From a virus (lineage: Duplodnaviria > Heunggongvirae > Uroviricota > Caudoviricetes), in the IMG/VR virus record IMGVR_UViG_3300029305_003072: DNA of 64,000 nt; one strand, written 5' to 3'. Positions within the stretch are counted from its first letter, which is position 1. Every line of letters starts with the position of its first letter. Position numbers and translations under genes: made by a program. Below are positions 3,058-64,000 of the stretch, one piece after another. The notes under the pieces are model-generated. The model searched no databases and had not been told where the DNA came from. It saw only the letters and a list, made by a program, of their open reading frames with translations.

Positions 3058-3089
3058 ATCGGCTACCTCTCATCTCTTTCTTTATCTTA

Positions 3090-3126
3090 CATATATATTA
3101 TAACATATTTTTTATAAAAAATCAAG
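3090..3126 (-). promoter_or_regulatory. early promoter cassette copy B
   Basis: -10 at plus 3097-3102 and -35 at 3120-3125, spacer 17; same cassette sequence as copy A. Confidence 0.75.
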
Positions 3127-41809: not shown

Positions 41810-41836
41810 TAAAAACTAAAAGGAGGAAATATAGAA

Positions 41837-42721: not shown

Positions 42722-42738
42722 GAAAGGAGAGAAGAGTA

Positions 42739-43851
42739 ATGGCTTTAGATAGAAATAATTTAGTACAGTTGGCTAAGACTGTTGCAAAGGCTGACCCTTC
42801 TGCTTCTGTGTCTTATAGCTTTAACGGTGAAAACTTTAGTTATGCCGCTTTGAACGAGACTCTACGTCGTGAGTTCAATGAGTTGGCTGGTACTTATTCT
42901 TTATATCGTGATAACAAGAATTTGATTTTCTCTGTTATCGAAGAGACTTTGGACGAGGTTCTGCCTAAGAAGGTTGAAATGGCTTATATGCAGTTCGCCG
43001 AGACTAAGCAGTTCGCTCAGGGCGACAAGCCTATTTTCCGTCGTAAGAGAGACGTTCGTTCTCGTGCTAAGCAGTTCATCACTCGTGTTGGATTGGCTGG
43101 TATTTACGAAGTATTTAAGCTAGGTCCTGCAGAAGAAGAGAGCTTCGAAGTTCGTACTTCTGCTATCGGTGGAGCTGCTCAGATTGGATTCGAGGAGTTC
43201 CTAGACGGTCGTGTGGACTTCGCTGAAGTAACTAATATTGTTATGGAAGGTATGGATGAGTTAATTATGAAGGAAGTTGGACATGCTCTAGCTGCTTCTG
43301 TTAACCAGTTACCTCCTGCAAATATTGTTGTTGCTACTGGCTTCGATGAAAAGGCTTTCGACAACTTGTTGGTTATCGCTTCCGCTTATGGTGAGCCTTC
43401 TATTTACTGCACTTATGAGTTCGCAGTTAAGATGGTTCCTGAGCAGGGTTGGCGTTGGACTGAGAATATGAAGCAAGAGTTGTGGGATACTGGTCACTTG
43501 GCTATGTACAAGGGACGTAAGGTTATCATCCTACCTCAGGGCTTGGAAGACGAGACCAATACTCGTAAGGTAATCAATCCTGGTTATTGCTATATCATCC
43601 CAAGTGGTGCTGATAGCAAGCCTGTTAAGATTGCTTTCGAGGGTGGTACAATCGTTGACGAGTATGTAAATGCTGACCGTTCTCGTGAGATTCAGGTTTA
43701 CAAGAAGGTTGGCGTAACTGCTATGTTAGCTAATAACATCTGCGCTTATGCTGATACTGAGTTGCTAGGTCAGTATGATTTGGCTGACTCTATTTGGGAC
43801 AGCTCTAACTATGTTGATATGTCCTATAACGTTAAGGACGTTAATGCCTAA
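42739..43851 (+). CDS. putative major capsid protein (370 aa); no TAG
   Basis: Size and position are typical for the capsid gene, a very strong terminator follows immediately, and there is no TAG. Confidence 0.5.
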   Translation: MALDRNNLVQLAKTVAKADPSASVSYSFNGENFSYAALNETLRREFNELAGTYSLYRDNKNLIFSVIEETLDEVLPKKVEMAYMQFAETKQFAQGDKPIFRRKRDVRSRAKQFITRVGLAGIYEVFKLGPAEEESFEVRTSAIGGAAQIGFEEFLDGRVDFAEVTNIVMEGMDELIMKEVGHALAASVNQLPPANIVVATGFDEKAFDNLLVIASAYGEPSIYCTYEFAVKMVPEQGWRWTENMKQELWDTGHLAMYKGRKVIILPQGLEDETNTRKVINPGYCYIIPSGADSKPVKIAFEGGTIVDEYVNADRSREIQVYKKVGVTAMLANNICAYADTELLGQYDLADSIWDSSNYVDMSYNVKDVNA

Positions 43852-43882
43852 TTAAATATTAATATATAACTAAGAGGGGGAA

Positions 43883-43923
43883 GTGGGGATATCCCCTCTT
43901 CCCCCTTTTTTTCATTTTAAAAA
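43883..43923 (+). terminator. strong rho-independent terminator (AGAGGGGGAAGTGGGGATATCCCCTCTTCCCCCT + T7)
   Basis: Long GC hairpin followed by a T-run. Confidence 0.85.
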
Positions 43924-43945
43924 CAGAGAAAAAGGAGATATAAAA

Positions 43946-44566
43946 ATGAGTACAATGTATAGAGTAAAAAACCGTGGTGCAAGCACCGTTGTTTATAAGA
44001 TTCCAGACAAGGGAATTCGTAGAGAATTCAAGCCTGGTCAGATTATTCCAATTAGTTCTGAAGAGTTAGAAGAATTAACTTTCCAGCCTGGTGGAGTTAC
44101 TATGTTAAGTCAATTCTTGCAGATTTTGGACCTTGAAGGAATTCAAGCTGCTCGTATTAAGACTGAACCTGAATATCATATGAGTGAAGCTGATGTTGCC
44201 AAGTTGATTACTAGTGGTTCCTTGGATGCTTTCTTGGATGCACTTGACTTTGCTCCCATTGGAGTTATTGATTTAATTAAGAAGTTGAGTATTTCTATTC
44301 CTATGGTTGATATCCCAAAGCGTAAGGCTTTGAAGGAAAAGACTGGTTTTGATGTGGAAGCCGCATTGAAGCACAATGAGGAAGATAAAGAAGATGACCA
44401 GAAGACAATCTTGAAAACTAATAATGGTGGCGAGCGTAGAGTACAGCCTGCTGCAGCTCCTGCCGGACGTCGTACAGCACCTACTGTAACTGCTCCTGCG
44501 GCCGCACCTAAATATAATATTGTTACTAAACCTGCAGTTGAGGCTCCTGCTGAATCTGCTGAATAA
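43946..44566 (+). CDS. virion protein (206 aa) with Pro/Ala-rich C-terminus; no TAG
   Basis: ATG after AAAGGAG. Confidence 0.5.
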   Translation: MSTMYRVKNRGASTVVYKIPDKGIRREFKPGQIIPISSEELEELTFQPGGVTMLSQFLQILDLEGIQAARIKTEPEYHMSEADVAKLITSGSLDAFLDALDFAPIGVIDLIKKLSISIPMVDIPKRKALKEKTGFDVEAALKHNEEDKEDDQKTILKTNNGGERRVQPAAAPAGRRTAPTVTAPAAAPKYNIVTKPAVEAPAESAE

Positions 44567-48020: not shown

Positions 48021-49025
48021 ATGAAATTTGGCGTTCGCGAAATTTGTGATGTTGTCTTAAAGGCAAAGGCTAACCAGAAGGTTGGTAACAAGATTTTCTA
48101 TAAGAACGAACCTGTTATCTATTTTGATACTCTGAAGACTTCTAGCATGGAGGGTGCTGCTACTACCGTTTATGCACAGGGCGGCCGTGGTAACTCTCGT
48201 TTGATGGCTTGGGAAGGTGAGCGTACCATTACTTTCACTATGGAAGATGCTCTAATCTCTCCCGCTGGCTTCATGATTCTATCTGGCGCAGGTTTGATTG
48301 AGGCTAGTGATGCTAAGCCCATTATGGTTCATACTACTGAGCAGACTGATGCTGTTGTTGTTGGCGATGGTGAAGTAACTATTACTCTACAGGAAGCTCC
48401 TTATGTACCTGAGTTGGGTAAGAGTGGCTATGGTGAAGATTTCATTTATGTTATGTTAATGCAGAATGGTGAAATCGTTACTGAGCCTTTCATTCCTAGT
48501 TCTGTTGAAGGCAATGTAATTAAGTTAACTGAAACTTGGACTGATGAAGCTCGTAGTGAGGTTAATCAGCAGGCTCGTGCTAACGATTTGAGTCCTTTCT
48601 ATGCTGGTTGTGTTGTATTGGTTGACTACTATGTTGCTCGTAAGTCTATGGCACAGCAGATTGATATCACTCCCGACAAGTTCGGTGGTAACTATTACCT
48701 AGAGGCTTCTACTCTGTTCCGTAATACTGAGGGTGTTGATATGCCTGCAGAGTTCGTAATTCCTAACTGCAAGATTCAGTCTAACTTTACTTTCACTATG
48801 GCATCTTCTGGCGACCCATCCACTTTCACTTTCACTATGGATGCATTCCCAGATTATACTCGTTTCGACCGCACTAAGAAGGTTCTGGCAGCTATTCAGA
48901 TTATTGAATCTGCTGATACCGATAGCGCTATCGACCGTGTAAGCACTCATTCTACTGATACTATTGACTTCAATGGCATGGTAGCTGGTACTCGTCCCTT
49001 TGCAGGTTTTGCAACTGAGGAATAA
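48021..49025 (+). CDS. major tail protein (334 aa); no TAG
   Basis: AAGGAGG followed by the ATG of MKFGVREICDVV. Size and position match a major tail protein, and a strong terminator follows. The longer ORF-track start at 47973 would include the SD itself. Confidence 0.5.
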   Translation: MKFGVREICDVVLKAKANQKVGNKIFYKNEPVIYFDTLKTSSMEGAATTVYAQGGRGNSRLMAWEGERTITFTMEDALISPAGFMILSGAGLIEASDAKPIMVHTTEQTDAVVVGDGEVTITLQEAPYVPELGKSGYGEDFIYVMLMQNGEIVTEPFIPSSVEGNVIKLTETWTDEARSEVNQQARANDLSPFYAGCVVLVDYYVARKSMAQQIDITPDKFGGNYYLEASTLFRNTEGVDMPAEFVIPNCKIQSNFTFTMASSGDPSTFTFTMDAFPDYTRFDRTKKVLAAIQIIESADTDSAIDRVSTHSTDTIDFNGMVAGTRPFAGFATEE

Positions 49026-49046
49026 TTGACAATTAAATAAATTTAA

Positions 49047-49082
49047 GGGGAGAGATTAAGAAATTAATCTCTCCCCTTTTTG
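49047..49082 (+). terminator. rho-independent terminator (GGGGAGAGATTAAGAAATTAATCTCTCCCC + T-run)
   Basis: A 12-bp stem followed by a T-run. Confidence 0.8.
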
Positions 49083-49108: not shown

Positions 49109-50278
49109 ATGGCTGAAGGTATTATTTTTGGTGGACATTTATTGGATAAAGATACTTTTATTCAAATATTTGAAGAATGGTATAATGAAAAAAATCAAGA
49201 ATTTTATCACGATTTAGTAATATTAAAAGATGAAATATCTCAAATGTATACTATGGAATTAAGAGAGAGTCAGTCTCATCCAGGAGTATGGAAAAATGCT
49301 ATGAGACGTCAGTCATCTTATAGTGCAAAAAAGATATATGAAAGATGGGAATAGATTCAAAAAAAATATTTTGGTAATAATGCTGTTACCTTAATTGCTA
49401 TTACTAAATTTGGAGAAAAAGAATTGACTTGGTCCTAGAATATAGAAGAAGCAAGTGTAATGACTGAGGGTGGTATTAATGTTACTAAAACTCAATTAAA
49501 TACGGCAGTTGGTTCTTTGGATAAAGATTTAGCTGCATATGCGGCCGCTCAAGAGATTTAGAATTTTTTTAGACGACATTATAGTGATATGTGTAATCAA
49601 CTTTCTGGCTATAAAATGAATAATACAGATGCTCAATTATTACATAAAACAATTTCTTCAAAATCTCCTTTGTATTAGTCTAGACATGAATCTTTTACTG
49701 GACGTAGTTATGGAGAAATTATTTTTGCTTCTTAGGGCAATGCCGAAGGTAAATAGTTAGATGCTTTTATGAATCATGTGGCTCAATACAATAAACAATT
49801 ATTTGGTTTAATGTCTGCTAGTGCTGTTAATAGTAATTAGCTTGTAAATTTAAAAATAGATGACCACGGTGGATTTTCAGGGATTTTTAGTTCTCCACAA
49901 GTAGTATAGCCTTGGTTATTAGCATCATTAAACTCAGCTAGTTGGTTGACAGGAGGAGACGTTGTTGTTATTGATGAGTCTGGAGCCGTAATTTATAATA
50001 TTTAGATTAAATCAACATTAGCAGATTCAGGTAAAAACTTTGAATTAGCATTAACAAGACTTGAGAGTTTAATTAATAGACTTATTAAAAGAATGGAAAG
50101 AATGCATGAAAATCCAAGATTAAAACCTAAGTCTTTAGCTAATATAATGTATAAGTCTTTAAAAACTACTAGTAGCAATGATGTTGCTAAAAGCGAATCT
50201 TTTATGGAGACTGAAGCTTATAATACTGTGCGTAAAAACTTAAATTTAGCTCCAATCAATATAAAGTTTAATGTATAA
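49109..50278 (+). CDS. hypothetical tail-associated protein (~389 aa) with 10 in-frame TAG
   Basis: A single frame runs from ATG 49109 to TAA 50276-50278 and is interrupted only by TAG; there is no alternative ORF on either strand. Confidence 0.5.
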
Positions 50279-50282
50279 AATT

Positions 50283-50311
50283 TGACAAATCAGAAATTTT
50301 CTGGTATAATA
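50283..50311 (+). promoter_or_regulatory. promoter TTGACA-17-TGgTATAAT
   Basis: TTGACAaatcagaaattttctggTATAAT, just upstream of 50346. Confidence 0.7.
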
Positions 50312-50345: not shown

Positions 50346-50885
50346 ATGGCTAAAGTACCATTTTCAAAACTTCAAGCTAAAGTAGACGGAGGGGCAACAA
50401 GTGTCTTTTATTATAATTTAGCAGGAGAAGAAGTTTATTATGAAGTAAAACATTATTTACCTTTTAAGGAAAAGCTTGAATTAGTATCAAACATTATTAA
50501 TAAGTCTATTGATGATAATGGATTTTACAATCCAATGAGAGTAAAATTTAATATGGTATTAGAAATTACTTATGCTTATACTAATTTAAGTTTCACTGAA
50601 AAAATGAAAGAAGACCCATTTAAATTATATGATATTTTAGTAAGCACTGGTATTTTTACAGATATTGTTGATGTTATTCGTGAAAAAGATTGGCAAGAAA
50701 TTCAAGAAAATGTTTGGTCTACTATTAATAATATTTATCAATATAATAATTCTGTAATGGGAATTTTAGATACATTAAAAGCTGATTATGATAATTTAAA
50801 TTTTGATGCTACTGAAATCCAAAAGAAGATTGGGGACCCAGAGAATATGGCTTTATTGCGTGAAGTCCTAACTAAATTGGGCTAA
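50346..50885 (+). CDS. tail assembly chaperone candidate (179 aa); no TAG
   Basis: Position immediately upstream of the tape measure gene, with an acidic C-terminal half and typical size. Confidence 0.4.
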   Translation: MAKVPFSKLQAKVDGGATSVFYYNLAGEEVYYEVKHYLPFKEKLELVSNIINKSIDDNGFYNPMRVKFNMVLEITYAYTNLSFTEKMKEDPFKLYDILVSTGIFTDIVDVIREKDWQEIQENVWSTINNIYQYNNSVMGILDTLKADYDNLNFDATEIQKKIGDPENMALLREVLTKLG

Positions 50886-50932
50886 TTAAATTATTCTTAT
50901 TATTTAGATTTTTAAATTTTAATAGGAATAGT

Positions 50933-50975
50933 CGGGGATGAGAATTTGATTATTCTCATCCCCGATTTTTTATTT
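50933..50975 (+). terminator. rho-independent terminator (CGGGGATGAGAAT..ATTCTCATCCCCG + T-run)
   Basis: A 13-bp stem followed by TTTTTTATTTT. Confidence 0.75.
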
Positions 50976-51017
50976 TGCAAAATAAAAAATTAGGAGAGAA
51001 AGGAGATAAAAATTTGT

Positions 51018-54000
51018 ATGGCAAAAAATCTTAATGTTAGTTTAGCTTTTACTGCGAATACGAATGAGGCTATTGCCGCAATTAAAAATTTGCAAAAAGA
51101 GCTTAATGGATTGGCTACTGGTTCTGCATTGAAAAATAGTGGAATTTCACAAATTACACCTGAAATTCAAAGAGCTATGACCGCAGCAGGAGAGTTATAG
51201 GCTAAACTAGAAGCGGCTACAAATTTAAAAACAGGAAAATTAGATTTAGGTCAATTTTCTGATTCCTTAAAAAAAGGCGGAGTTTCTCTTCAGCAATATG
51301 CTAATCAATTAAATGCTCTTGGTCCGGCCGGTCGTCAAGCATTTACGAATTTAGCTTAGTCTGTTTTATAGGCAGAAGCTCCTTTAATTAGATGCAGTCA
51401 AAGGGTTAGAGAGCTTGGTACTACATTAGCAAATACTGCAAGATGGCAGTTATCTTCTAGTATTTTACATGGTTTTATGGGAACCGTATAGTCTGCTTAT
51501 GGATATGCTCAAGATTTAAATAAATCTTTAAATGATATTCGCATTGTTACTGGTGCTAGTGTTGCTGAAATGGATGCATTTGCAGCTAAGGCAAATAAGG
51601 CAGCGCGGGCATTAAGTACAACAACTAATGAATATGCTAAAGCTTCTTTAATCTATTTCCAATAGGGTGATACTCAATCTGAAGCTATGCAAAAAGCTGC
51701 TGTTACTGCAAAAATGGCAAATGTAACTGGACAAAGCGCAGATGTTGTTTCTAATCAATTAACTGCTATTTGGAATAATTTTAACAAAGAAGGCGATGTT
51801 GCTTATGAACATTATGCCGATGTATTAACAAAATTAGGTGCTGCAACTGCGTCTAGCACTGATGAAATTGCTGGTGGATTAGAGAAATTTGCCGGTATTG
51901 CAGATACTATTGGTTTGAGTTATGAATATGCTGCATCTGCTTTGGCAACAATTACTGCAACATCTCGTGAAAGTGAAGAAGTTGTTGGTACAGCATTAAA
52001 AACAATCTTTGCACGTATTCAAGGTTTAAAGCAAGGAGACACCCTTGAAGATGGTACTACTTTAAATAAATACTCTGAAGCTTTGCAAAAAGTCGGTATT
52101 AGTATTTTTGACCAAACTGGCGAATTGAAGAATATGGATAGTATTCTTGAAGAAATGGCCGCAAAATGGGTAACTTTAAATAAAGACCAATAGTTGGCAT
52201 TGGCTCAAACTGTTGCTGGTGTTCGTCAATATAACCAAATGGTTACTTTGATGGATAATTGGGATTTTATGGAAGAAAATCTTGCAACTGCTGGCGCAGC
52301 GGATGGAGAACTTAATAAACAAGCTGAGATTTATGCTGAAAGCTGGGAGGCTGCTCGAGACAGAGTAACAGCAGCAGCAGAAAATTTATATACTAAAATT
52401 TTAGATGACGATTTTTTCATTGGTTTTTTAGATGGTTTAAGCCATGTTATTGATGGAGTAGGTAGTTTAGTTGATGCTTTTGGAGGTTTAGGTGGCGTTC
52501 TAGCAACTATTGGAGCTATTGCCACAAAAGTTTTCCATAAAGAAATTGCTTAGGGTTTAAGAAATGCTGCTTATAGTATTAAGCAATTTACTCCAGCGGG
52601 TAAAAAAGAACATGAAAAGACTAAAGAAGATGCTCTTGAGGGTATTCGTAACTTAAAATCTAATATGCGTGGTCGTGAAGGCGATGCAGAAAATGCTTCT
52701 CTTGATAGAGAAATTCGTATGCAAGAATAGCTACGTGCAGCTGCTGGTCGCGTAACTGAAGAAGAGCTTAAATAGCTTCAAGTTCAAATGGATTTAGTAC
52801 GAGCAATGGATAAGAGAGCAATTGCTGCTGGTAAAGCAGCGGATGCAGCAAGGGAAGAAGTTGAAGACGCTCGAGATTTAGCAAAAGCCTATGAGAAAAT
52901 TGAGGCTAGAGATAAGGCCAAGGAAGATTTTTAGAAGAAACATTAGGGTGAAGAAAATCAAAAACGAAATGACGCAATATCTCAAGCCTTTGACGATGTA
53001 ATAGATTATGGAGCAAATCACAGAAAGACAAAACATCATCGATTTGGTGAGTAGGGAGATTATATTAATTAGCAATATGCTTAGGCTCGGTAGAGGGTAG
53101 TAGATTCTGGTGAAACAGTAACAGCTGATGCTGTTCGAGGAGAATTTTTAGCTGGATTAAGAGAGGCGGCCGACAGTAGAGATGAAATGGCGAAAGCTAT
53201 TTTTGATAAAGTTAAAGCTGCTGGAGAAGAAGCTGCTTAGGCATATGGTGAAGCTATGAAGTCTGAGCTAGATGAAGCAATGAGAGATGCTGAAAGATAG
53301 GCTAGCGAAAAAATTGAAAATATTGGAAAAGCAGTGGATAAAGGTGCTATGACGGAAGTCCGTGCCAAAGATTTAAGAGAAACTGCTTCTAAACTTTCAG
53401 TAAAAACTAAAGACGATAATGGTAATGAAGTTTATAAAACTGCCGATACTGGATTAGGTAAAGTATAGGATACATTAAAACAAAAGCTTGCTGCGACAGC
53501 TGCTGAAGCTAAAGAATTATAGGCTGCATTAGCTGCTTTGGGTAAATCTGATAGTGTATTAGATGGTAGAATTGCAGATTTAGAAAATATGACACAAGAA
53601 TTAAATAGTACTACTGCTAGTGCTGAACGTCTTGAAGAAATTTTAGGATAGCTATCTAGTGAAGAGGAAGGCGGTATTACTTCAGTTCTTGAAGATTAGG
53701 CTCAAATGTTGACAGTGGATGCAGCAGGAACGCCTTATGGTGGAGAAACAAGCGCAGATGCAAAAACTCGTGGAGGAGAAGATTATCTTCGTTCTAAGCA
53801 AGCTGCTTAGAAACAAATGGATAGCGAAAACGCTAATTTAAATGTTGGCGGTAGTGAAGAAGGTTTAAATGAATCTTTTAATAAGAGCGGTTTAACAGAT
53901 TGGGCCGATTAGATTACTAATACTACTGATTTAATTATGGGACTAGGCTCTGCAATCAGTTCAGTATAGGGAGCTATTGATGTTTTTAATAATCCTGATG

Positions 54001-57000
54001 CAACAGCTTGGGATAAAATTAGTGCAGTAATCAGTGTTGTAATCGGTATTTTACCAGTTGCATCAACTTTAATGACAATGTTTGGTACTACTGCAGCAAC
54101 AGCAGGTGCAACTGCGAGTGCGGGTATGACCGCTGCGTTAGGTTCAATTGGTTGGATTATTTTAGCAGTAACAGCATTGATTGCAATTTTTATTGCTTTA
54201 GGTTCTGCGATAGCAGCAAATTCTCCAGAAGGATAGCTGAAGAGTGCACAAGAAGCCACTGAAAAAACTGCACAAGCGGCACAAAATGCAAAAAGTGCTT
54301 ATGAAGAATTGTTAGCTACTATCAATAGATATGATAGTGCAAAAGAATCGTTAGAAGGATTAGCTAAGGGTACCGAGGAATATACGGAAGCTCTCATGGA
54401 GGCTAATGCTGCGGCAAGAGAATTAATTGATACTTATGAATTAACAAGTGATTAGTTCCATGTGGATGAAAATGGTTTAATTCAAATTGATGAAAATGCT
54501 CTTTAGACAAAGAAAGATGAACATCGTGAAAGAGTTGAAAAAACTTCTAGTGCATTAACAGGCGCTTAGAAATATGAGAATGAAAAAGAAGACGATGTTA
54601 CTATTTCTAATATTCGAAAAGAAGCTAATAAGGATTCCATGTATTATGGGTCTGATTATTAGAATTATTTAATCTCTGATACTAATATTGAAACTGTATT
54701 AGCTGCGGCCAGAAATGCAGAAGGTGGTTCTGATGCTTATTTCGCTGAAGGTGAAAAAAATATTGCAGCAACAATGGGATGGGACCCAGATGCATTAACA
54801 ACTTATTAGCAAGATTTTATAAATGCATTAATGGAAAATTCCGCGGCCCTATCTGAAGCAAATGCAGCAATTTTAGCAAACGCAGCGGCCAATGAAGCTG
54901 CTACAAAAGCATAGTTGGCGCAAAATTTGAGTGATGAAACTGCATTTTAGGACAGTGAATATCAAGATGAGTTATTAGAAGCTGCATTAAATACTCAAGG
55001 GACTGAGGAATCAGAAGCTCAAGATAAGCTTGACGGAATGACTCAAGACCAAATGTATGATGCTTATGCTGAAATGATGGGCTATACCAATAATGGTATA
55101 GGTACTTGGTTAGATGGTAAGCAAGAGTTCTTGGATGCTGACGGAAATCCAATTGAGTTAACTCCAGAGCAAGTAGAAGCTCAAATGCGTGAAATGTACG
55201 CGCAAGAGGGTATGGAAGAAAATGCATTAAATCTTGTAGATACTATGAATCAAGTAATGGCACGAGCTGATGAAAATAAAGGTGTTATTAGTACTGCTAT
55301 TACTGGAGATACAGAAAAATTAACTATTGGTTAGTAGGGTATGAGTGCAGATGAAGTTGCTGCTATGGTTACTGATGAAGAAGCTCAAGCGATGGGCTTT
55401 GAAAGTGCGGCAGCTTTTGGAGAATCATTTGCTTCTGCTACAGAGAGCTTTGCTGGTGAATGGCAATCTTTAATGGGAAATTATGTTGACTCCGTTTCTG
55501 ATTAGATGCAAACCATGTTTGATAATGGAGAGTTAGATAATCTAACTCTTGGACAGTCAGAAAATTTAGCAAATGCTTTTGAAACTGCATATGCAACTAG
55601 TGGATAGGCTGGTATGGATGTATTGGCTAAGATGTTTACTGATGCTGGTGAATATTCTGACGAATTTGCAAATGCTCTTGGAACTATAGACTGGAGCACT
55701 GCTACCCCAGAGACTTTACAAGACGCATTGGATGCCGCGGGTGTTGCTACTCATTATACTGCTGATGAATTAAATAATTTAATTAATGTAATGAACGAAG
55801 GAGCTATGGGCTTCGAAAATGCTGCAAATAAATATAAAACATTATCTGAGATTGTTGATTCATTAAAATCTGGTGATACTATTACAGCTGAGCAATTTAA
55901 AGAATTGGGTCCAGGTATGGAAGATTATTTCATGCGAATGGCTGATGGTACTTATAAATTAATTGGTGATGCAGAAGCTTTCTATGCTGCTGTTAATGAA
56001 TAGTAGTTGGAAGGTTTTGAAAATACAATTACTGCAAAAACTGAAGATAATGCAGAAATTGAAAATGTATTAAATCATGATATTAGCTCTTTGGGTAAGA
56101 TGGATAGTACTACAATGGGTGGTCATGTTTACACTGGAAATGGACAATTTGTTTAGAATACTGATGTAGCTAATGCTCAATTAAATTTCTTAGAGTAGAC
56201 TGGCTATGACCCCGCTCAAGTTCAACAATGGCGTGATGATATGTAGGCTGGCACTTTAGATGTTAAAGCATTGACAACTGCTGTGAATGAACAAACAACG
56301 TCTCTTGGCGGAGCAGCAGCTGCAGAAGAATATTTAACACAATAGCTGGATGCTAATAATACAGAAATTGAACAAAGTAAAGAGGCTATTGCATCTACGG
56401 CTACATCTTTAGATGAATTAGATTAGATGTTGCAAGATGGTAAGATTTCTGTAGAAGCATATGATAAAGCTGCCTAGGGTGCTTTTGAAAAAGAAGTTGA
56501 AGCTGAGGGTTTCGACACTGAAGAACTTAATAATTATGTTGATGCATTAATTGAATCTGGTAAATTCTTAGAAGAAAATCGACAAGAAGCTCAAAAATTT
56601 GCTTTAGCTCAGTATCGGATGGAAAAAGGATGCACTGAGTTGGTTGAAAGTTATGAAGATTGGGACAAAGTTTTATCAGATAATGAAGCTAGTTTAAAAG
56701 ATATTAATAAAGTTATGCCAAAAGTAAATTCTATGTTACAAGATATGATGGACTTATCTGATGAAGAATTTGCTTTATTACCAGATAATTTTGCTCAAGA
56801 TAATTGGAATTTAATTCAAGACGTTTATAATGAAGTTGATGGAGCTTATGAAGCTTTAAGAGCAAAAATAACAGAAGAAATTGTTATGAAGGTTGTACTT
56901 GATGAATCTGCTTAGGGTCAAGTTATGACAGAAGTTAATAATTTTTTAGCCAATGTTAATTTGGATGATATTGAAGTTGGAGCAACTTTAGATTCCACTG

Positions 57001-60000
57001 GATTTGCAGCTGGTTTATAGGGATTATTGGATTCTGGCGCAGTAACTGTAGAACAAATGAATGACATTTTATCAGGTATTGGTTATGAACCAATTATTGA
57101 ATATGAACAAGTAGCAGTTAGTTCTTTTGCCCGTCAAAGCCAATAGGGTTATATTCAAGTTGCAGGTGTTGATGGAAGCATTGAATATGTGCCAATTACA
57201 TCTGACATGGATATTAGTGGTGAACAATATGTATATGTTCCAAAAATCGGTAGTTCTAAATATAAAGGCGGCGGTGGTGGTGTCGCTGATGCTAAAGCCA
57301 ATAAAGGCGGTGGCGGAGGAGGCGGTGGCGGCTCCAAGCCAAAGAAAGCCGACAAAGTAAAGAAAACTGATGTTGTTGACCGATATAAAGAAATTGACGA
57401 TAAACTTGATGACATTGCAGATAAAATGGATGATGCTTCTAAGGCTGCTGACCGTCTATGGGGTCCTGCACGTTTAAAGCAAATGAAAAAAGTTAATGAT
57501 GCTTTAGAAGAAGAAATTGATGCATTAAAGAAAAAACGAAAAGAAGCACAAGATAATCTTGATATTGATAAAAAAGCTTTGAAAGATACTATTAGTGCAG
57601 AAGCAGGAGTTACAATTACAGACGCAGATTTTGACGCAGAAGGCAATTTCACTAGATATGATGAAGTTTTAACTGATTTATATAATGAAATTGATGCTGC
57701 TATAGAAGCGGCCAATGCTGATGGTAATGCTGATGAAGATGAACAAGAAAAAATTGATAAAATTCAAGAGCGTATTGATAAAGTAAAAGAAGCAATTGAC
57801 CAATATGATGAAACTCGTGAATTAATTGAAGATTTAGACAATGATATTCAAGATAAAATTTACGAATGGCAAGATAACAATTATGAACAATTAAATTATA
57901 AACTTGAATATGAAATTGAAATTAATGATTCTGAACTTGAATTATTAGAATATTATATGGGCAAAGCTGAAGGTAATATTTATAAAACTGCAGAAGCTTT
58001 TGGATATTTAGCTGGACAAGCCGATATTTATACTGATAATTTAAAGCATCAAGAAGAATATGTTAATGAATTAACTAGGGCTTATTATGCTGGTGAAATT
58101 TCTATGGATGCATATAAGGAAGGTTTGCGTGAAGCTCAAAGTGCAACCATTGAAAACTTATAGGCATTAGAAGAACAAAAGAAAGCTATGCAAGAGTATT
58201 ATGGTGAAGTAATGGATATGGCTCTTGAAGAAATTTCTTTGTATACAGATGAAATGGAAGAGTTAAATTCTGTTCTCGACCATTATTCTAATATTCTTGA
58301 ATTAGTTGGTAAGCAAGAAGATTATGCAACCAAGGGTAAAGTTTTACAATCCAAAGCCGCAAATCTTCGCAATGAAATGCAAGTCCAACAAAAACTTTAT
58401 GAAAAGTCTAATGCCGAAGCTGAAGATTGGGCTGCTAAAATGGCAACAGCAATTGAAGGTTCTAATGAGTATGAAACTTATAAAAAGAATTGGATTGCGG
58501 CCCAAGAGGCAGCTAATGAAGCTCAAGAAAATATGTTAAGTAAGACTGAAGAGTGGGCTGAAGCAATGAAGGCAGTTATTGAAAATGAATTAGCTGGATT
58601 AGCTAAGACCATGGAAGAGTCTTTAACGGGCGGAACTTCATTTGATGAGTTATTAACTTCTATGGAGCGCCGCAGTAGTCTACAAGAAGAATATCTAACA
58701 ACTACAAATCAAATTTATGAAACTAATAAATTGATGCGTCAAGCTCAACAAGAAATTGATAAAACTACTAACTCTGTAGCAAAGCGAAAGTTGGCTAATT
58801 TCATTAATGAAACAGAATAGATGCAAAATCAAACTGAGTTAAGTCAATATGAGTTAGATATCCAGTAGGCCAAGTATGATTTACTTTTGGCTGAAATTGC
58901 ATTAGAGGAAGCTCAAAGTGCTAAATCTACTGTTCGCTTACAGCGCGATAGTGAAGGCAATTTTGGTTATGTTTATACTGCGGACCAGTCTGCGGTCGGT
59001 GAGGCCGAACAAGAATTGGCAGATAAGCAAAATGCTCTTTATAATCTTGGATTAGAAGGTGCTAATGATTATAGTCAAAAGTATGCTGAAACCATGCAAG
59101 AAGCTCAAGATGCTATTACTGAATTAACAGAAATGTGGATGAATGGTGAAATTGAGTCTGAAGAAGAATATCAAAGACGCAAGGCTGAAATTCAGGATTA
59201 TTATTATGAGAAATTAAAGCAATATTCAAGCTTATATCAAGTAGCATTAACTACTGATAGTAATGTTATCAAAGATGCTTGGAGTACTGACTTTAGTGAT
59301 ATGATGTATAAGACTGAAGATTGGAAAGTCGCAACTGATGATTACTTTGCCGGAGCTGCTGAAAGCATGAAGACCTGGGCTGAAGTTTGTGGAACCGTTC
59401 TTGAGGAATCTGGTCTTGATGACGTAAGTAAAAAGGTTGAAGAAATCAATACCAAGAGTGAGAATTTGAAAAATACTCTAATTGGTGAAGATGGCGAGAG
59501 CGGCGTTGTTGGTGCAATGATGTCTGAAGTTGAAGCTGCGGGTAAGTTAAGTGAAGCTTATATTGGCATTCAAAATCAAATTGATGAAGTTATTAAGAAG
59601 TATGAAGAAATGATGGGTGTAATTAATGAAGATTATACCAATGAAAATACTCCTGAAGTTACTCCTGCGATTACTCCAGACCCTGAACCCGAGCCAGAAG
59701 AACCAGTTCCTGAACCAGAGCCTGAACCTGAGGAGGCCACTGTTCCTGAATTAAAGGTTGGTTCTACAGTTACCGTTAAGAAGAGCGCAAGCAGATGGGC
59801 TACTGGAGAAGGTATTTGGAATCCAGTTAAGGGCAACAATTTCAAAGTTAAGAAAATTAATGGAGAAAAAGTTCTTATTGGAGACCCTTCAGGTCCTAAC
59901 TATAGTGCTTCTGGCATTACAGGTTGGATTAAGAAAACTGACCTAGAGGGCTTTGCTACTGGTGGCTACACTGGAGACTGGGAAGGTTCTTATGGTAAGT

Positions 60001-60293
60001 TAGCAATGTTACACCAAAAAGAATTGGTGCTAAATGCAAATGATACTGAAAACTTCTTGCAAGCAATGGATATTCTTGATAAGATTGTTTCTGCTATTGA
60101 TTTGTATAGTATGAATTCTCAGCTTGGTGGAGCTTTATCTAGTCCGTCTCTTGGAAATATGGGCGGTGGAGATGTCCTTGAACAACAAGTACATATTGAA
60201 GCTAGTTTCCCAGGAGTACAAGATAGAAACGAAATCGAAGAAGCATTTAATACTCTTATCAATAGAGCATCTCAATATGCTAATCGTAAATAA
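51018..60293 (+). CDS. tail tape measure protein, ~3091 codons, containing ~50 in-frame TAG
   Basis: Nine ORF-track pieces (51018, 51687, 52194, 55038, 55614, 56619, 57189, 58188, 58887) share one frame. Codon-by-codon reading shows only TAG interruptions and a single TAA at 60291-60293. The protein has Ala/Gln/Glu/Lys-rich coiled-coil composition, Gly-rich (GGGGGVADAKANKGGGGGGGGGSKPKK) and Pro/Glu-rich (PEPEPEEPVPEPEPEPEE) linkers, and a conserved-looking C-terminal domain. Confidence 0.8.
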
Positions 60294-60299
60294 ATTTTT

Positions 60300-60339
60300 G
60301 GGTAGGTTATAGAAATATAACCTACCCTTTTCTTTATTT
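60300..60339 (+). terminator. rho-independent terminator (GGGTAGGTTATA-GAAA-TATAACCTACCC + T-rich)
   Basis: A 12-bp stem with a GAAA loop. Confidence 0.8.
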
Positions 60340-60356
60340 GGTCTAATTAAAAAAAT

Positions 60357-60385
60357 TGACTTTTCACAAATTTTATAGTATAATA
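60357..60385 (+). promoter_or_regulatory. promoter TTGACT-17-TATAAT
   Basis: TTGACTtttcacaaattttatagTATAAT. Confidence 0.65.
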
Positions 60386-60417: not shown

Positions 60418-63400
60418 ATGGCAATTGAAGTTGATAATCTATTTCAAGCACTAGATATTATTTTAGATTAGCGCTTGCAAAATATGAATTATGATAAAAC
60501 CGATGTTTGTATTATTACTGATGATAGAGATGCTAAAAATGGTCACTATTGGGTTTCTCCAAACAATGGTGAAACTAGATATGAAGCATTTAGTGAGTCA
60601 GAAGAATATAAAAAAGGTGAGAGTGTCAGAGTTTCTATTTTAAATGGAGATTATACTCAAAAGAAATTTATCGTAGGTAAATATGTAGTAGATGATGCTA
60701 TTACTCCCATTACTTATGTTTCTCCTCTAGATACGGTTATTGATGTTACTGGAAATATGATTAGTGAAGCCAAAGCTAATGCTCAATATGGTTTAATTTC
60801 AAATGGTACAGTATCAGAAATTCCGATTTGGAGTGCGGATTTGGCTTTAGACCAATCTTATAAAGATTTACAAGCCAGTGGCATTTATAATACTATTAGT
60901 TTATCTGCTAATTTTAAAACTTTATTAGATAACTATGATATGCGTTCAGGCTCTTTTGGATTGCGCCTAGATGTATATGTAAAATTAAATCCAAGTAGTG
61001 AAAAATATATTGTTCGCTCTGTGTATATGGATAGTTCTGAAATGTTTGGTAATCCATATGCTTTTACACTATATTCTCCCCAGAGTAGAAAATATGATTT
61101 AAGTCAGCTTGGTGCCGTTGAAAAATTAAGTTTATGGTTTTATCAACGAGGAGATTTTTCTTATTATGATTCAAATCAAAGACAAACAGTTAATATTGAT
61201 TATAAAAAAATTCCAAGAGAAAATATTTTATTGAGAGATATTAAAATTGGATTTGGTAGCGATTTGACTATTGTTCAAGATAATACAATTCAAGCTTTTA
61301 CAACCAATTCTTCTACTTATAGATTAATTGTTACTAAAGCAGATAATGAAAAAGGATTAGGATTTTTGTGGTATAACAAAGATGAAAACAATCAATATTT
61401 GGGATACAGCGATGGCATTGTTGATTTTGAATATAAGGATGGAAATGTTGTTTATACCAATAAGCTTGATAAAAATTAGAATAAAGTAACTCAAGATGTT
61501 CTTGATGAAAAGAAACGAGCTATTTTAGAATTTGCTAAGGATGATAAGGATAATGTTATCCTAGTCTCTGTATTAGATGATGATGGATATGAAATTTCTT
61601 TTGATGATTTAAAAATCACTATTGACGATGCTTTAATCATTTTAGCAAATGAGGTTAGTAATTTAAAACTCCAATTACAAATTCAATATGACAATGAAGA
61701 AATTGGTTTTAATGAGTTCATAGCTCGTAAATCAGATATTGATAATTATGAGCGAGTTAAACGGACTTATCTTAATACTAATTATTCTAATGAAGAGCTT
61801 GAGCAAGCTATTGAGAGCCAGCGTAGTGCAGAATTGGAGGGTTTAAGATTACAATTCGAAGCTGGTGCTTTTGGCGAAGGCGATGAAGCAAATTAGAGAT
61901 ATAATAAAGAAATAGCAAAAGTTAATGATTTATATAACAATAAGCGTGCTGAATTAAGAAATTATAGAGTTCAAAAAACCTATGTTCTTTAGAAGAAATA
62001 GCAAGATGTAATGATACAAAAAGTCGCTCCATATGATGAGTTTAAATATATGGAAGAAAGCGAAACAGATGCTCGTTTAACCGCACAAGCCGGCAAAGAA
62101 GGCGTTCCTTCTGATGCTAAGAGTTTAAAATTATCTGCAGATTTGGCTGAAGTTAAGCCTTTAATGACTAAAACTTTTGATTTAGTTACCAAAGATTTAA
62201 CTGCGGTGCTCCGTCAAATGCGCGACCGCACGAACTCTATCGCAGATATCACTACGGCTTTAAATGCATTACTATTAACTCCTACCAAGGATGCCGCAGG
62301 ACAAATCCACGGTACGGAAAGAAATAACATTCTTGCTTGGTATGATTTTACTGATGCAATGAGAGAAGAAATGTATGGTGTTTATACAGAACTTCTAGAA
62401 TATAATTATTTACATTAGGAAAATTTAAAGAAACTTCCTGCAGAGCAAGAAACTGATGCTATCCTTAGAGAGAAAATGGGAGAGCATTTACAAGCTTGGA
62501 ATAAATCTGATTTATATTTAAATATTCAAAATAGTTTTAAGTCTTCTTTAATTCCAATGATAACTAACTTTTTTACAAATGCTCAAACTACAATTGATGC
62601 AAATTATAGTGGTTATCAAGGTATTTATGATACTTATAAAACTAAGGCTGATAAAATAATTGTTCAAATTAATGAGAATTTAAATAAAATGTGGGCAATT
62701 GTTGATGACAATAATGCTATTATGGTAGACATGAGACCTTATAATAATGGCCGCGTATATTTAGATTATAATAAAAAAGATTTATCTAACTATGATAATC
62801 GTTATGCAATCTATTGGTATAGATATGAGCCTGGATACACAAGTGATGATAGATTATATCCAACTGAATGGAAACGTTTAACGACAAAAGCTGATTTCGG
62901 TATTGATGAGTCTGATGAATTAGTATATAACTTTGGATTACCAATTTATGATGATTTTGTTTTAAGAGATGGACAATACTATTTTTCTGATAAGGTTCAA
63001 GGAACCAATGTCTCTGCAATTCGCATGATGGATGGACAGAGAGTAAATGAAAAATATAAAATTGTTTTATTCTATAATCACGAAATGTATGAAAGTAATG
63101 AAGTAGAATTTACTAATTTAGATGATGTAGTTGACCCAACCACAGCAGATAAGAATGATGCTATTGTTATTACTCACGGCACGAATTCACAAGATACTTA
63201 CCAGAGTTATGGTTTAAGTAATTTCTTGGTAAATGCGGCCGACGCAAGTAAGGTGCGAGAATTATCTGTGCATTATGAAGGTATTCTTGCAGGAGATGAA
63301 GCTTTAGCTAATACACAAGTATATTGGTATATTCCAAATACTGCTACTATGTTAACTTGCGATGATAAGCATTTAACTGAAACTTTAGGTTTTTATTCTG

Positions 63401-64000
63401 ATTTAAATATTTCAGACGGAGAAAAACCTGATTATAGTAGAAATGGTTATACTTGTTATTATAAAACAATTGGTGTAGAAACAGTGCAAATTACAGATGA
63501 CCCAGAAACAGAAGAGGTTGAATCTGGAGAAAAAGTTACTGCAAAAGCAAGTGATTTAACATTCACTTATAAGATTAAAGATTATTATTTATCTACCTCA
63601 AGCCGCAATGAAATTTTCTGTAAGGTAGTAAAGGATGAATATACATTTGAGACAAGTATTGTTTTGGCATTTACGTCTCTTGGAACCAGTGGTACTGATT
63701 ATACATTGGCAATTACTCCTTCTACAACTCAAATTGCAACTTATGCTTCTGGATATTTGCCATTAAATATTGTTTTATATGATTATAAAAATAATACTAT
63801 TCCTATGACTACAAATTTATTATCGACAGTAAAAGATGGAGCATCTAACTTTAAGTTAGGTTGGGAAGGACCACACTCCTATGATTTTGCTACATTATCT
63901 GATGCCGATGATAATATCGTTGGAGCGAATATTCAATTAACAACTTAGCCATAGGATAATAATAGTTTAATTTATGGTGTTTTAAAAGCAACTGTTGATT
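60418..64000 (+). CDS. large tail protein (distal tail/baseplate/fibre candidate), >=1194 codons, continues beyond window end; >=8 in-frame TAG
   Basis: ATG 60418 after AAAGGAG. One frame stays open to the window end with no TAA/TGA; the 61480-62010 and 62419-62475 gaps were checked codon by codon. Track pieces 60475, 62011 and 62476 are in this frame. Confidence 0.6.

What the first reader, a model, noticed from the sequence alone, without database searches (positions are those of the whole stretch)
51018..60293. Exceptionally long tape measure gene (9.3 kb, ~3,090 residues)
Using the usual ~0.15 nm of tail per tape-measure residue, this predicts a tail of roughly 450 nm, far above typical siphovirus or myovirus tails. 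The protein has Gly-rich and Pro/Glu-rich flexible linkers near residues ~2,060 and ~2,890 and a distinct C-terminal globular region. If TAG is decoded inefficiently, about 50 suppression events would also make this protein strongly dependent on suppressor supply.
Basis: inference. Interest (0 to 1): 0.6.

Follow-up and report, generated by a model that had tools for sequence, protein, structure and literature searches.

The report
Amber-recoded giant phage tape measure gene
This is one real 3,091-residue tail tape measure gene of a gut phage that reads the stop codon TAG as glutamine. It predicts a tail of about 450 nm, but equally long and equally recoded tape measures are already described in related phages, so it is a new example rather than a new kind.

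Summary
The frame 51018..60293 (+) holds 3,091 sense codons, 50 in-frame TAG, no TGA, and only the terminal TAA.

TAG is glutamine. At the most conserved TAG site (aa 216), 120 of 120 homologs carry Q. Against a roughly 90%-identical relative, all 9 discordant TAG sites are CAA or CAG.

It is a single tape measure protein (TMP). PF10145 and TMP PHROGs hit the N-terminus. Both ends match homologs. It is colinear with the single-ORF, standard-code TMP of Enterococcus phage VRE9_2 and with the recoded TMP of phage phAss-1.

The length is not unprecedented in this lineage of large Firmicutes siphophages:
- phAss-1 group: 3,149-3,209 aa, also TAG-recoded (published 2023).
- Bacillus phage Kirov: 3,055 aa, 438 nm tail.
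- Lactococcus phiL47: 3,275 aa, 480 nm tail.

Calibrated on these relatives, the predicted tail is about 443-464 nm.

New details:
- A conserved poly-Gly hinge sits about 1,000 aa from the C-terminus.
- A mosaic C-terminal module is poor in TAG.
- A swappable cell-wall-binding cassette occurs near the C-terminus: SH3-like here, CW_7 or LysM in relatives.
- No muralytic domain was found.
- Terminator hairpins bracket the gene.
- The capsid and tube genes avoid TAG completely.

Verdict: real, correctly interpreted, and a new member of a known kind.

The parts
51018..60293 (+). Tape measure protein gene: 3,091 codons plus TAA, with 50 in-frame TAG read as Gln
50992..51006 (+). Extended Shine-Dalgarno AGGAGAGAAAGGAGA. 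The same motif lies upstream of the TMP genes of relatives and upstream of the next gene in the window
50930..50977 (+). Intrinsic-terminator-like hairpin (16-bp stem plus U-run) directly upstream of the TMP RBS. A hairpin plus U-run sits at the same place in L005, L006 and L008 with unrelated stem sequences
51594..52220 (+). PF10145 PhageMin_Tail core (aa 193-401). The wider TMP PHROG match spans aa 23-514
52464..52535 (+). Hydrophobic segment, aa 483-506
54003..54230 (+). Cluster of two long hydrophobic, membrane-like segments, aa 996-1026 and 1033-1071
57267..57401 (+). Poly-Gly hinge (G5 ... G9) followed by SKPKK...VDRYKEIDD (aa 2084-2128). It is conserved in position, about 1,000 aa from the C-terminus, in L005, L006, L008 and phAss-1. 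The TAG-rich part of the gene ends just before it, at aa 2043
59649..59735 (+). Pro/Glu-rich low-complexity linker (aa 2878-2906). It is hypervariable in composition among relatives
59736..59957 (+). SH3-like beta-barrel cassette (aa 2907-2980). It is 40% identical to aa 250-309 of the Enterococcus phage phiEf11 endolysin. Orthologs carry CW_7 or LysM at this position
59961..60035 (+). Invariant motif GGYTGDW..G.YGKLAMLHQKELVLN (aa 2982-3006)
60036..60290 (+). Conserved helical C-terminal end (aa 3007-3091), ending ...FPGVQDRNEIEEAFNTLINRASQYANRK
60300..60327 (+). Terminator-like hairpin (12-bp stem plus U-run) 7 nt after the TMP stop. A different hairpin occupies the same place in the 99.9%-identical contig L009
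48021..49025 (+). Tail tube gene, 58% identical to a YomU_Tube-annotated protein in L006. It has 0 TAG and all 11 of its Gln codons are CAG
49109..50278 (+). Unknown 390-aa ORF with 9 TAG. It lies between the tube terminator (49045-49078) and a 12/12 consensus promoter (50282-50310)
50346..50885 (+). 180-aa gene just upstream of the TMP gene, 33% identical to the L006 protein with a faint YomO Pfam hit. It is a possible tail assembly factor and has 0 TAG
60418..64000 (+). Next late gene, at least 1,194 aa with 8 TAG, running off the window. It is a presumed distal tail or baseplate protein, but no family match was found

Best explanation
The frame is one gene for the tail tape measure protein of a large, uncultured, long-tailed non-contractile phage of a Gram-positive (Firmicutes) gut bacterium. 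Its late genes are written in genetic code 15, where TAG means glutamine. By inference from the family, the protein acts as the length ruler around which the tail tube polymerises, so 3,091 residues predict a tail of about 443-464 nm.

Its anatomy runs as follows: an N-terminal TP901-type core; three hydrophobic segments; a long helical, charged ruler; a conserved poly-Gly hinge; a C-terminal module of about 1,000 aa; a low-complexity linker; an SH3-like cell-wall-binding cassette; and an invariant GGYTGxW...KELVLN end. That end presumably sits in the tail tip and leaves first at infection. No muralytic domain is present.

Full-length synthesis needs 50 consecutive TAG-to-Gln decoding events. 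Per-codon efficiency must therefore be high, since 0.99 per codon gives 60% full-length product, 0.95 gives 8% and 0.90 gives 0.5%. This means the protein can only be made once the phage's amber-decoding state is established late in infection.

Shown here: single gene, TMP homology, TAG = Gln, the architecture, the mosaicism and the flanking hairpins. Inferred: tail length, cell-wall binding, the dependence on a suppressor tRNA, and the role of the terminators.
For: Frame statistics: 50 TAG, 0 TGA, and a chance probability of no TAA/TGA of about 3e-80.

TMP homology: PF10145 scores 91 bits against a cutoff of 33.2. PHROG 4211, 34405 and 28, all named tail length tape measure, hit at E = 2.5e-72 and weaker.

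Single gene: the protein is colinear from end to end with the phAss-1 TMP (five ordered HSPs) and with the uninterrupted 2,673-aa TMP of Enterococcus phage VRE9_2.

TAG = Gln: Q is found in 120/120, 98/120 and 82/120 homologs at TAG sites aa 216, 392 and 158. All 9 discordant TAG sites are CAA or CAG in the ~90%-identical module of L008.

Synteny: tube, unknown ORF, YomO-like gene, TMP, giant distal ORF, matching L006, L008 and VRE9_2.

Ruler calibration: Kirov has 3,055 aa and a 437.6 nm tail. phiL47 has 3,275 aa and a 480 nm tail.

C-terminal cassette: the AlphaFold model has five beta strands with pLDDT up to 90. SH3, KOW and SH3b-like barrels are the top fold matches. The cassette is 40% identical to an endolysin module. 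CW_7 and LysM occupy the same slot in orthologs.
Against: No suppressor tRNA or release-factor gene lies in the 64-kb window, so the decoding machinery is not seen. The SH3-like cassette has no Pfam match, and its fold matches are weak, with E = 0.02-0.1 against PDB and 3e-5 for the best viral hit. Tail length and morphology rest on relatives, since no virion has been imaged. The host is unknown.
Confidence: 0.9

Rival explanations
1. The stretch is a row of separate small genes, or a decaying pseudogene full of amber mutations, read with the standard code.
For: Under table 11 the frame breaks into pieces of at most 468 aa. Public annotations of relatives list such fragments as separate hypothetical proteins.
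Against: There are zero TAA/TGA in 3,091 codons, against 178 expected. The TAG sites align with conserved Gln. The protein is colinear with uninterrupted TMPs. TAG occurs in-frame in most other late genes, while TAG almost never serves as a stop: 1 of 27 early genes and none of the 18 complete late genes.
Confidence: 0.01
2. The gene is a fusion of two functional units joined at the poly-Gly hinge. One is a ruler of about 2,080 aa. The other is a tail-tip or cell-wall-binding module of about 1,000 aa that is cleaved off or does not contribute to length, so the tail would be nearer 300 nm.
For: The hinge is conserved in position in five relatives. TAG density drops 8-fold just before it, at aa 2043 (Fisher p = 3e-6). 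Identity to L008 jumps from about 25% to 62-93% beyond it, which makes it a recombination boundary.
Against: In relatives with measured tails, the full TMP length gives the canonical 0.143-0.147 nm/aa. The C-terminal motif lies at the very end of every TMP in the family, including those without a poly-Gly run, such as VRE9_2 and phiL47. Region aa 2147-2801 is an ordinary part of the TMP alignments with phAss-1 and VRE9_2.
Confidence: 0.08
3. TAG is decoded only partially. Together with the upstream terminator, the 50 TAGs then act as a built-in attenuator or timer that holds TMP output at roughly 1% of tube-protein output.
For: The probable high-copy virion genes (capsid, tube and three neighbours) have 0 TAG in 58 Gln codons, against 89 TAG in 396 Gln codons elsewhere (Fisher p = 1.6e-6). 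A per-codon efficiency of 0.91 would give about 1% full-length product, which is close to the copy ratio expected for 3-6 TMP copies against about 110 tube rings (ring count from Kirov). The TMP has no promoter of its own and sits between two terminators.
Against: Orthologous TMPs carry 2, 16, 36, 50 and 110 TAG. Under leaky decoding that would mean output differing by orders of magnitude. TAG density in the TMP (1.6% of codons) is ordinary for the other low-copy late genes, which range from 0.7% to 2.3%. The +4 context of TAG equals that of CAA (p = 0.12). TAG avoidance in capsid and tube genes goes together with a general switch from CAA to CAG, which is ordinary codon optimisation.
Confidence: 0.12

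Closest known systems
Tape measure proteins of phage phAss-1 and the proposed genus Phassvirus (Babkin et al. 2023, PMC10607447; OQ749652)
   Same: Human-gut metagenomic phages of about 135 kb whose late genes use TAG = Gln. Their TMPs are 3,149-3,209 aa and interrupted by TAG. My extraction of the phAss-1 TMP gives 3,150 aa with 110 TAG. It is colinear with the window TMP and has a poly-Gly hinge at the same relative position.
   Different: Identity is only 24-39% over the aligned blocks. There is no nucleotide-level match. TerL is 45% identical, whereas it is 50% identical to the Enterococcus EF1-like phages. phAss-1 lacks the GGYTG motif and carries three tRNA-Sup(CTA) genes, while none lies in this window.
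Enterococcus phages EF1, EF5, VRE9_1-4 and H1 (about 134-142 kb, standard code)
   Same: These are the closest cultured relatives, with TerL 51%, MCP 40% and tube 42% identical. Their TMP is a single 2,673-aa ORF that is colinear at the N-terminal core, the middle and the C-terminal GGYTG...KELILN end.
   Different: They use the standard code with no TAG recoding. The TMP is about 420 aa shorter, has no poly-Gly hinge, and no SH3-like cassette could be aligned.
Lactococcus 949-group phages (phi949, phiL47, AM4; Audreyjarvisvirus) and Bacillus phage Kirov or PBC2
   Same: The TMPs are homologous, sharing the N-terminal core and the C-terminal motif, and have the same or greater length: 3,275, 3,280 and 3,055 aa. 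Measured non-contractile tails are 480-500 nm and 438 nm. The best viral fold match of the window's C-terminus is an SH3b-annotated PBC2 protein.
   Different: They use the standard code, are cultured with known hosts, and share only 24-35% identity in short blocks.
Bacillus subtilis SPbeta YomI (CwlP) tape measure
   Same: The virion module is related. Relatives of the window carry YomU_Tube, YomO, YonB and YonD Pfam hits. The YomI N-terminal core matches at 25% identity.
   Different: From my own knowledge, YomI is 2,285 aa and carries lytic transglycosylase and peptidase domains. The GenBank record found also labels it a putative transglycosylase. No muralytic domain is detectable in the window protein. 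It has a binding-type cassette only.
TP901-1 tape measure protein (founder of PF10145; PMC5099701)
   Same: It shares the N-terminal core family and the general ruler logic.
   Different: From my own knowledge it is about three times shorter (937 aa). It is not recoded and has no cell-wall-binding cassette.

Membership tests
Phage tail tape measure protein (TP901-type core) | PF10145 / TMP PHROG match above threshold | tested here: met
   PF10145 scores 91 bits against a cutoff of 33.2, at aa 193-401. phrog_4211 hits at E = 2.5e-72, with six further full-length TMP PHROGs over the N-terminal ~510 aa and a weak one (phrog_12717) at aa 2997-3027.
Phage tail tape measure protein (TP901-type core) | Position in the tail module, after the tube and assembly genes and before the distal tail genes | tested here: met
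   The order is tube (48021-49025), two small genes, TMP, then a giant downstream ORF. L006, L008 and VRE9_2 have the same order.
Phage tail tape measure protein (TP901-type core) | End-to-end colinearity with accepted full-length TMPs | tested here: met
   Ordered HSPs from the N- to the C-terminus with phAss-1 and VRE9_2. Both termini coincide with those of homologs.
Phage tail tape measure protein (TP901-type core) | Internal hydrophobic segments in a long, charged, Ala-rich protein | tested here: met
   Hydrophobic segments at aa 483-506, 996-1026 and 1033-1071. Charged residues (DEKR) make up 17-40% and Ala 6-18% of residues in 200-aa windows along the protein. Helicity of the whole protein was not modelled.
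Phage tail tape measure protein (TP901-type core) | Protein length determines tail length | not testable with these tools
   Only calibration on relatives is available: Kirov at 0.143 nm/aa and phiL47 at 0.147 nm/aa.
Code-15 (TAG = Gln) phages | In-frame TAG in genes that have no in-frame TAA or TGA | tested here: met
   50 TAG in the TMP and 1-9 in twelve other late genes. The early minus-strand genes have none.
Code-15 (TAG = Gln) phages | TAG positions correspond to glutamine in homologs | tested here: met
Code-15 (TAG = Gln) phages | Phage-encoded suppressor tRNA with anticodon CTA | tested here: inconclusive
   ARAGORN and Rfam find no tRNA in the 64-kb window. The rest of the genome is not available. 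Some recoded members of the phAss-1 group also lack one.
Genus Phassvirus (phAss-1, BK046881, BK025033) | Genus-level nucleotide similarity (members are 80-86% identical to one another) | tested here: not met
   There is no megablast match of the TMP gene to any phage record. TerL is 45% and MCP 45.5% identical at the protein level. The window phage is a relative in the wider clade, not a member of the genus.
TMPs with muralytic domains (SPbeta YomI/CwlP, TM4, T5 Pb2 type) | Lytic transglycosylase, lysozyme or peptidase domain | tested here: not met
   No such Pfam hit at E <= 0.1 on the full protein or on the C-terminal 197 aa.
SH3b-type cell-wall-binding domain | Sequence-profile match to an SH3 family | tested here: not met
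   Zero Pfam families for aa 2895-3091.
SH3b-type cell-wall-binding domain | Small five-stranded SH3-like barrel fold | tested here: inconclusive
   The AlphaFold model has five strands and a local pLDDT of 57-90. PDB matches are KOW, SH3 and YorP barrels at E = 0.02-0.1 with TM-scores up to 0.75. The best viral match is the PBC2 'SH3b domain-containing protein' at E = 2.8e-5.
SH3b-type cell-wall-binding domain | Homology to a module of a known endolysin, and positional equivalence to known peptidoglycan-binding domains | tested here: met
   40% identity over 82 aa to phiEf11 endolysin aa 238-309, between its GH25 and LysM parts. CW_7 (32-35 bits, cutoff 25) and LysM (32 bits, cutoff 20.9) occupy the same alignment slot in orthologs.
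SH3b-type cell-wall-binding domain | Binds peptidoglycan | not testable with these tools
   Needs a binding assay with the purified cassette.

The most novel reading that the evidence does not exclude
In this phage lineage the reassigned TAG codon may be used as a graded expression dial. It is absent from the high-copy capsid and tube genes and abundant in the low-copy TMP. Together with a conserved read-through terminator in front of the TMP gene, it could set the roughly 1:100 TMP:tube stoichiometry and delay TMP completion until amber decoding is fully established. Separately, the TMP tip carries an exchangeable endolysin-type cell-wall-binding cassette (SH3-like, CW_7 or LysM). This could act as a host-range or penetration determinant that has not been described for tape measures.
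Probability: 0.15. Interest if true: 0.55.

Novelty: new member of a known kind. Interest (0 to 1): 0.27.

Why it matters
The practical point is about annotation. Under the standard code this 9.3-kb gene is split into dozens of 'hypothetical proteins', as has happened in the public records of its relatives. Recognising code 15 restores the longest gene of the phage and its morphology prediction: a siphovirus with a tail of about 450 nm.

Biologically it adds an independent, divergent example to the recently described clade of amber-recoded, very-long-tailed gut Firmicutes phages. It also shows three features that could be tested in cultured relatives: modular exchange of the C-terminal third of the ruler, a swappable cell-wall-binding cassette at the TMP tip, and expression-linked avoidance of the recoded codon. 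It does not change what is known about tape measures or about stop-codon recoding.

Tried and rejected
- Megablast of the gene against 50,697 phage records gave no match.
- Exact-match scans of IMG/VR and of the JGI metagenome contigs, aimed at recovering the rest of the genome and any suppressor tRNA, found nothing. Only a 5-kb, 99.9%-identical fragment was reached, through the protein index.
- PDB sequence searches with the C-terminus, a profile of it, and an N-terminal homolog returned only coiled-coil noise.
- Pfam on ten neighbouring proteins found nothing. The local Pfam copy lacks the newer SPbeta families (PF27xxx) that the precomputed tables list for relatives.
- Tandem Repeats Finder detected only tiny repeats in the linkers, so the length is not due to recent tandem duplication.
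- Rfam and ARAGORN found no RNA genes.
- I tested whether depletion of TAG in the last third of the gene is a general property of these TMPs. It holds for the window, phAss-1 and L006 but not for L008, so I dropped it as a rule. I prefer a mosaic-origin explanation for the window.
- I tested for a special nucleotide context after TAG and found none.
- I considered a myovirus reading. No sheath-like hit appears among the tail-module proteins, and the relatives that have been imaged (Kirov, phiL47, phi949) are siphoviruses.
Full report
**Observation**

It runs from ATG 51018 to TAA 60293 on the + strand. It holds 3,091 sense codons, with 50 in-frame TAG, no TGA, and TAA only at the end. From the base composition of the stretch, about 178 TAA/TGA would be expected, so the chance of finding none is about 3e-80. 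The other five frames hold 95-415 TAA+TGA. Under the standard code the region falls into pieces of at most 468 aa. The Gly-rich run (aa 2084-2105), the Pro/Glu-rich run (aa 2878-2906) and the count of 50 TAG all match the finding.

**The window as a whole**

The window is about half of a phage genome. Bases 1-34,000 carry small genes on the minus strand. These have no in-frame TAG and almost never use TAG as a stop (1 of 27). Bases 34,150-64,000 form a + strand late block with lower G+C. Most genes in that block contain in-frame TAG, and every complete one ends in TAA or TGA. No tRNA and no Rfam family is present in the window.

The large terminase is 62% identical to a human faecal phage contig. 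It is 51% identical to the Enterococcus phages EF1, EF5, VRE9 and H1. It is 45% identical to phage phAss-1 and 33-35% identical to SPbeta-like Bacillus phages and Lactococcus phage 949. These are all large Firmicutes phages of 115-170 kb, and those that have been imaged are siphoviruses. The major capsid protein (42739-43851) and the tail tube (48021-49025) have the same set of relatives.

**What TAG means**

Two independent tests give glutamine.

- In an alignment with 120 metagenomic homologs of the N-terminal 511 aa, none is interrupted at the window's TAG positions. They carry Q in 120/120 cases at aa 216, 98/120 at aa 392 and 82/120 at aa 158. Q is the commonest residue at six of the seven sites and a close second at the seventh (aa 61: K 38, Q 37).
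- The C-terminal part of the protein is about 90% identical to that of a relative on a 63-kb JGI contig (L008). In that part, every site where one phage has TAG and the other does not shows CAA or CAG in the other phage (9 of 9), and one site is TAG in both.

The base following TAG has the same distribution as the base following CAA (p = 0.12). TAG therefore sits in the sequence like an ordinary sense codon.

**What the protein is**

With TAG read as Gln, the protein matches Pfam PF10145 (PhageMin_Tail) at aa 193-401, scoring 91 bits against a gathering score of 33.2. It also matches eight PHROG families, all annotated as tail length tape measure protein. The best hit is phrog_4211 at E = 2.5e-72 over aa 23-514, and there is a weak hit at aa 2997-3027.

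It is colinear from end to end with two reference TMPs:

- The TMP of phAss-1, which in my extraction is 3,150 aa with 110 in-frame TAG.
- The uninterrupted, standard-code 2,673-aa TMP of Enterococcus phage VRE9_2.

Its first residues (MAKNLNVSLAFTA...) and its last residues (...NRASQYANRK) coincide with the termini of many homologs. Gene order is the same as in relatives: tube, an unknown TAG-rich ORF, a 180-aa YomO-like gene, the TMP, then a giant downstream ORF. The 'several genes' alternative is therefore refuted.

**Anatomy**

From N- to C-terminus the protein contains:

- The TP901-type core (aa ~20-510), ending in a hydrophobic segment (aa 483-506).
- A charged stretch.
- Two long hydrophobic segments (aa 996-1026 and 1033-1071).
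- About 1,000 aa of Ala/Glu/Asp-rich sequence.
- A poly-Gly hinge, G5...G9-SKPKK...VDRYKEIDD (aa 2084-2128).
- About 750 aa of charged, aromatic-punctuated sequence.
- A hypervariable low-complexity linker (aa 2878-2906).
- A cassette of about 70 aa (aa 2907-2980).
- An invariant motif, GGYTGDW..G.YGKLAMLHQKELVLN (aa 2982-3006).
- A conserved helical end.

The hinge recurs about 1,000 aa from the C-terminus in L005, L006, L008 and phAss-1. It is absent from VRE9_2 and phiL47. There are no sizeable tandem repeats.

**The C-terminal cassette**

An AlphaFold2 model of aa 2895-3091 was built with 73 aligned sequences and has a mean pLDDT of 71. It shows five beta strands followed by two long helices.

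Fold matches are to small SH3-like barrels. Against the PDB these are Spt5 KOW, ribosomal KOW proteins, c-Src SH3 and the SPbeta protein YorP, at weak E-values of 0.02-0.1 with TM-scores up to 0.75. The best viral match is an 'SH3b domain-containing protein' of Bacillus phage PBC2 at E = 2.8e-5. Pfam finds nothing in this region.

The cassette is 40% identical over 82 aa to residues 238-309 of the phiEf11 endolysin, which lie between that enzyme's GH25 and LysM parts. In orthologous TMP C-termini the same alignment slot is occupied by other modules. P0124, P0128 and P0142 carry a CW_7 repeat (32-35 bits, cutoff 25). P0200 carries a LysM domain (32 bits, cutoff 20.9).

I infer that the slot holds an exchangeable peptidoglycan-binding module. 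No transglycosylase, lysozyme or peptidase domain is detectable, unlike SPbeta YomI.

**How unusual the length is**

Against phages in general it is very long. Within this lineage it is normal.

| Phage | TMP length | Tail length | Source |
|---|---|---|---|
| Bacillus phage Kirov | 3,055 aa | 437.6 ± 12 nm, non-contractile |; PMC10454425, |
| Lactococcus phage phiL47 | 3,275 aa | 480 nm |; PMC3888941, |
| Lactococcus phage AM4 | 3,280 aa | not looked up | |
| Lactococcus phage phi949 | not looked up | 500 nm | PMC3888941, |
| Lactococcus phage phi111 | not looked up | 470 nm | PMC3888941, |
| phAss-1 and two congeners | 3,149, 3,150 and 3,209 aa, TAG-interrupted | not imaged | Babkin et al. 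2023, PMC10607447, |

Metagenomic relatives found here have TMPs of about 2,817 aa (2 TAG), about 3,100 aa (16 TAG) and 3,046 aa (36 TAG).

The two calibrations from relatives (0.143 and 0.147 nm/aa) and the textbook 0.15 nm/aa give 443, 453 and 464 nm for 3,091 aa.

**TAG load and expression**

TAG makes up 28% of the Gln codons in the TMP, with counts of CAA 122, CAG 9 and TAG 50. This density (1.6% of codons) is typical of the other low-copy late genes, which range from 0.7% to 2.3%. The count of 50 mainly reflects gene length.

The probable high-copy genes behave differently. These are the capsid gene, the tube gene and three genes next to the capsid gene. They have 0 TAG in 58 Gln codons, against 89 TAG in 396 Gln codons elsewhere (p = 1.6e-6). 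They encode Gln almost only with CAG.

Within the TMP, 47 TAG lie in aa 1-2043 and only 3 in aa 2044-3091 (p = 3e-6). The break lies just before the poly-Gly hinge.

Identity to L008 is about 25% over aa 400-2000 and rises to 62-93% from aa 2200 onward. The C-terminal third is therefore a recently exchanged module, and its low TAG content probably reflects its history. A similar C-terminal dip occurs in phAss-1 and L006 but not in L008, so it is not a general rule.

Full-length yield would be 60%, 8% or 0.5% at per-codon efficiencies of 0.99, 0.95 or 0.90. However, orthologs carry anywhere from 2 to 110 TAG, which argues that decoding is efficient rather than limiting.

**Transcription signals**

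Strong terminator-like hairpins with U-runs lie in three places: after the tube gene (49045-49078), directly upstream of the TMP RBS (50930-50967), and 7 nt after the TMP stop (60300-60327).

Consensus sigma-70-type promoters lie at 50282-50310 (12/12 matches, with an extended TG) and at 60356-60384. No promoter-like site lies between the upstream hairpin and the TMP start.

A stable hairpin plus U-run, with unrelated stem sequences, sits at the same place upstream of the TMP gene in L005, L006 and L008 (z-scores -4.6 to -6.5). None was seen in phAss-1. The 99.9%-identical contig L009 carries a different hairpin after the stop codon.

I infer that the TMP is transcribed by read-through of a partial terminator, which fits its low copy number. 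This is not shown.

**Verdict**

This is a genuine, single, amber-recoded tape measure gene predicting a siphovirus tail of about 450 nm. It is a new and divergent member of an already described kind: code-15 gut phages related to phAss-1 and to the EF1-like, 949-like and SPbeta-like phages. Interest is modest. The exchangeable cell-wall-binding cassette, the modular C-terminal third and the expression-linked avoidance of TAG are the parts that might repay experiments.

Noticed in passing
window 40271-44566 and 48021-49025, compared with the rest of 34168-64000: There is a sharp split in Gln codon use among the late genes. The capsid gene, the tube gene and three neighbours use CAG (48 of 58 Gln codons) and never TAG. 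The TMP and the other late genes use CAA plus TAG and hardly any CAG (Fisher p = 1.6e-6 for TAG and 1e-25 for CAG against CAA).
   Followed up: partly
window 50930-50967, 60300-60327, 49045-49078; L005 2173-2300; L006 9579-9700; L008 1941-2053; L009 4939-5016: The TMP gene is bracketed by intrinsic-terminator-like hairpins and has no promoter-like site of its own. The upstream hairpin is conserved in position, but not in sequence, in three relatives. A near-identical contig carries a different hairpin after the stop codon.
   Followed up: partly
window 57600-60293 (aa ~2200-3091) compared with L008 2054-11194: The TMP is mosaic. Identity to the L008 TMP is about 25% over aa 400-2000 and 62-93% from aa 2200 on. 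The boundary lies near the poly-Gly hinge and the drop in TAG density.
   Followed up: partly
window 59736-59957; P0124, P0128, P0142, P0200: The cassette just upstream of the invariant GGYTGxW motif is exchangeable among orthologous TMPs. It is SH3-like here and CW_7 or LysM in relatives. A fourth type (WDKVYGAYKKINSGAWG...) in P0125, P0126 and P0147 has no Pfam match.
   Followed up: partly
window 49109-50278: A 390-aa ORF with 9 TAG (41% of its Gln codons) has no match in Pfam or PHROGs. It sits between the tube terminator and a perfect consensus promoter. ORFs in the same position in L006 (479 aa, 18 TAG) and L008 (407 aa, 3 TAG) are also TAG-bearing.
   Followed up: no
window 1-34000, minus strand: The early-gene block has higher G+C (0.42-0.48), no in-frame TAG, and TAG as the stop codon in only 1 of 27 ORFs. 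This is a code-neutral early region next to a recoded late region. Many long spurious ORFs appear on the opposite strand.
   Followed up: partly
window 60418-64000: The next late gene is at least 1,194 aa with 8 TAG and runs off the window. It has no Pfam or PHROG match. ORFs in the same position are 2,122 aa in L008 and 2,175 aa in phAss-1.
   Followed up: no
P0226 (relative's TMP C-terminal fragment): The precomputed Pfam list for this homolog of the TMP C-terminus shows Hint/intein-type families (PF07591, PF05203, PF14890). This suggests an intein inserted in a relative's tape measure. The window gene has none.
   Followed up: no
L009 (JGI 3300018430, 5,016-bp contig) = window 55356-60293: The same TMP 3' half occurs at 99.92% identity in a public metagenome. 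Similarity drops sharply right after the stop codon, which points to a recombination junction at the gene boundary.
   Followed up: partly
L006 (GCA_023665325.1, contig JAMPED010000012.1): A 52-kb contig with this phage type's tail module and a TAG-recoded TMP of about 3,100 aa is binned in a MAG labelled Acetobacter sp. This is probably a mis-binned phage contig.
   Followed up: no
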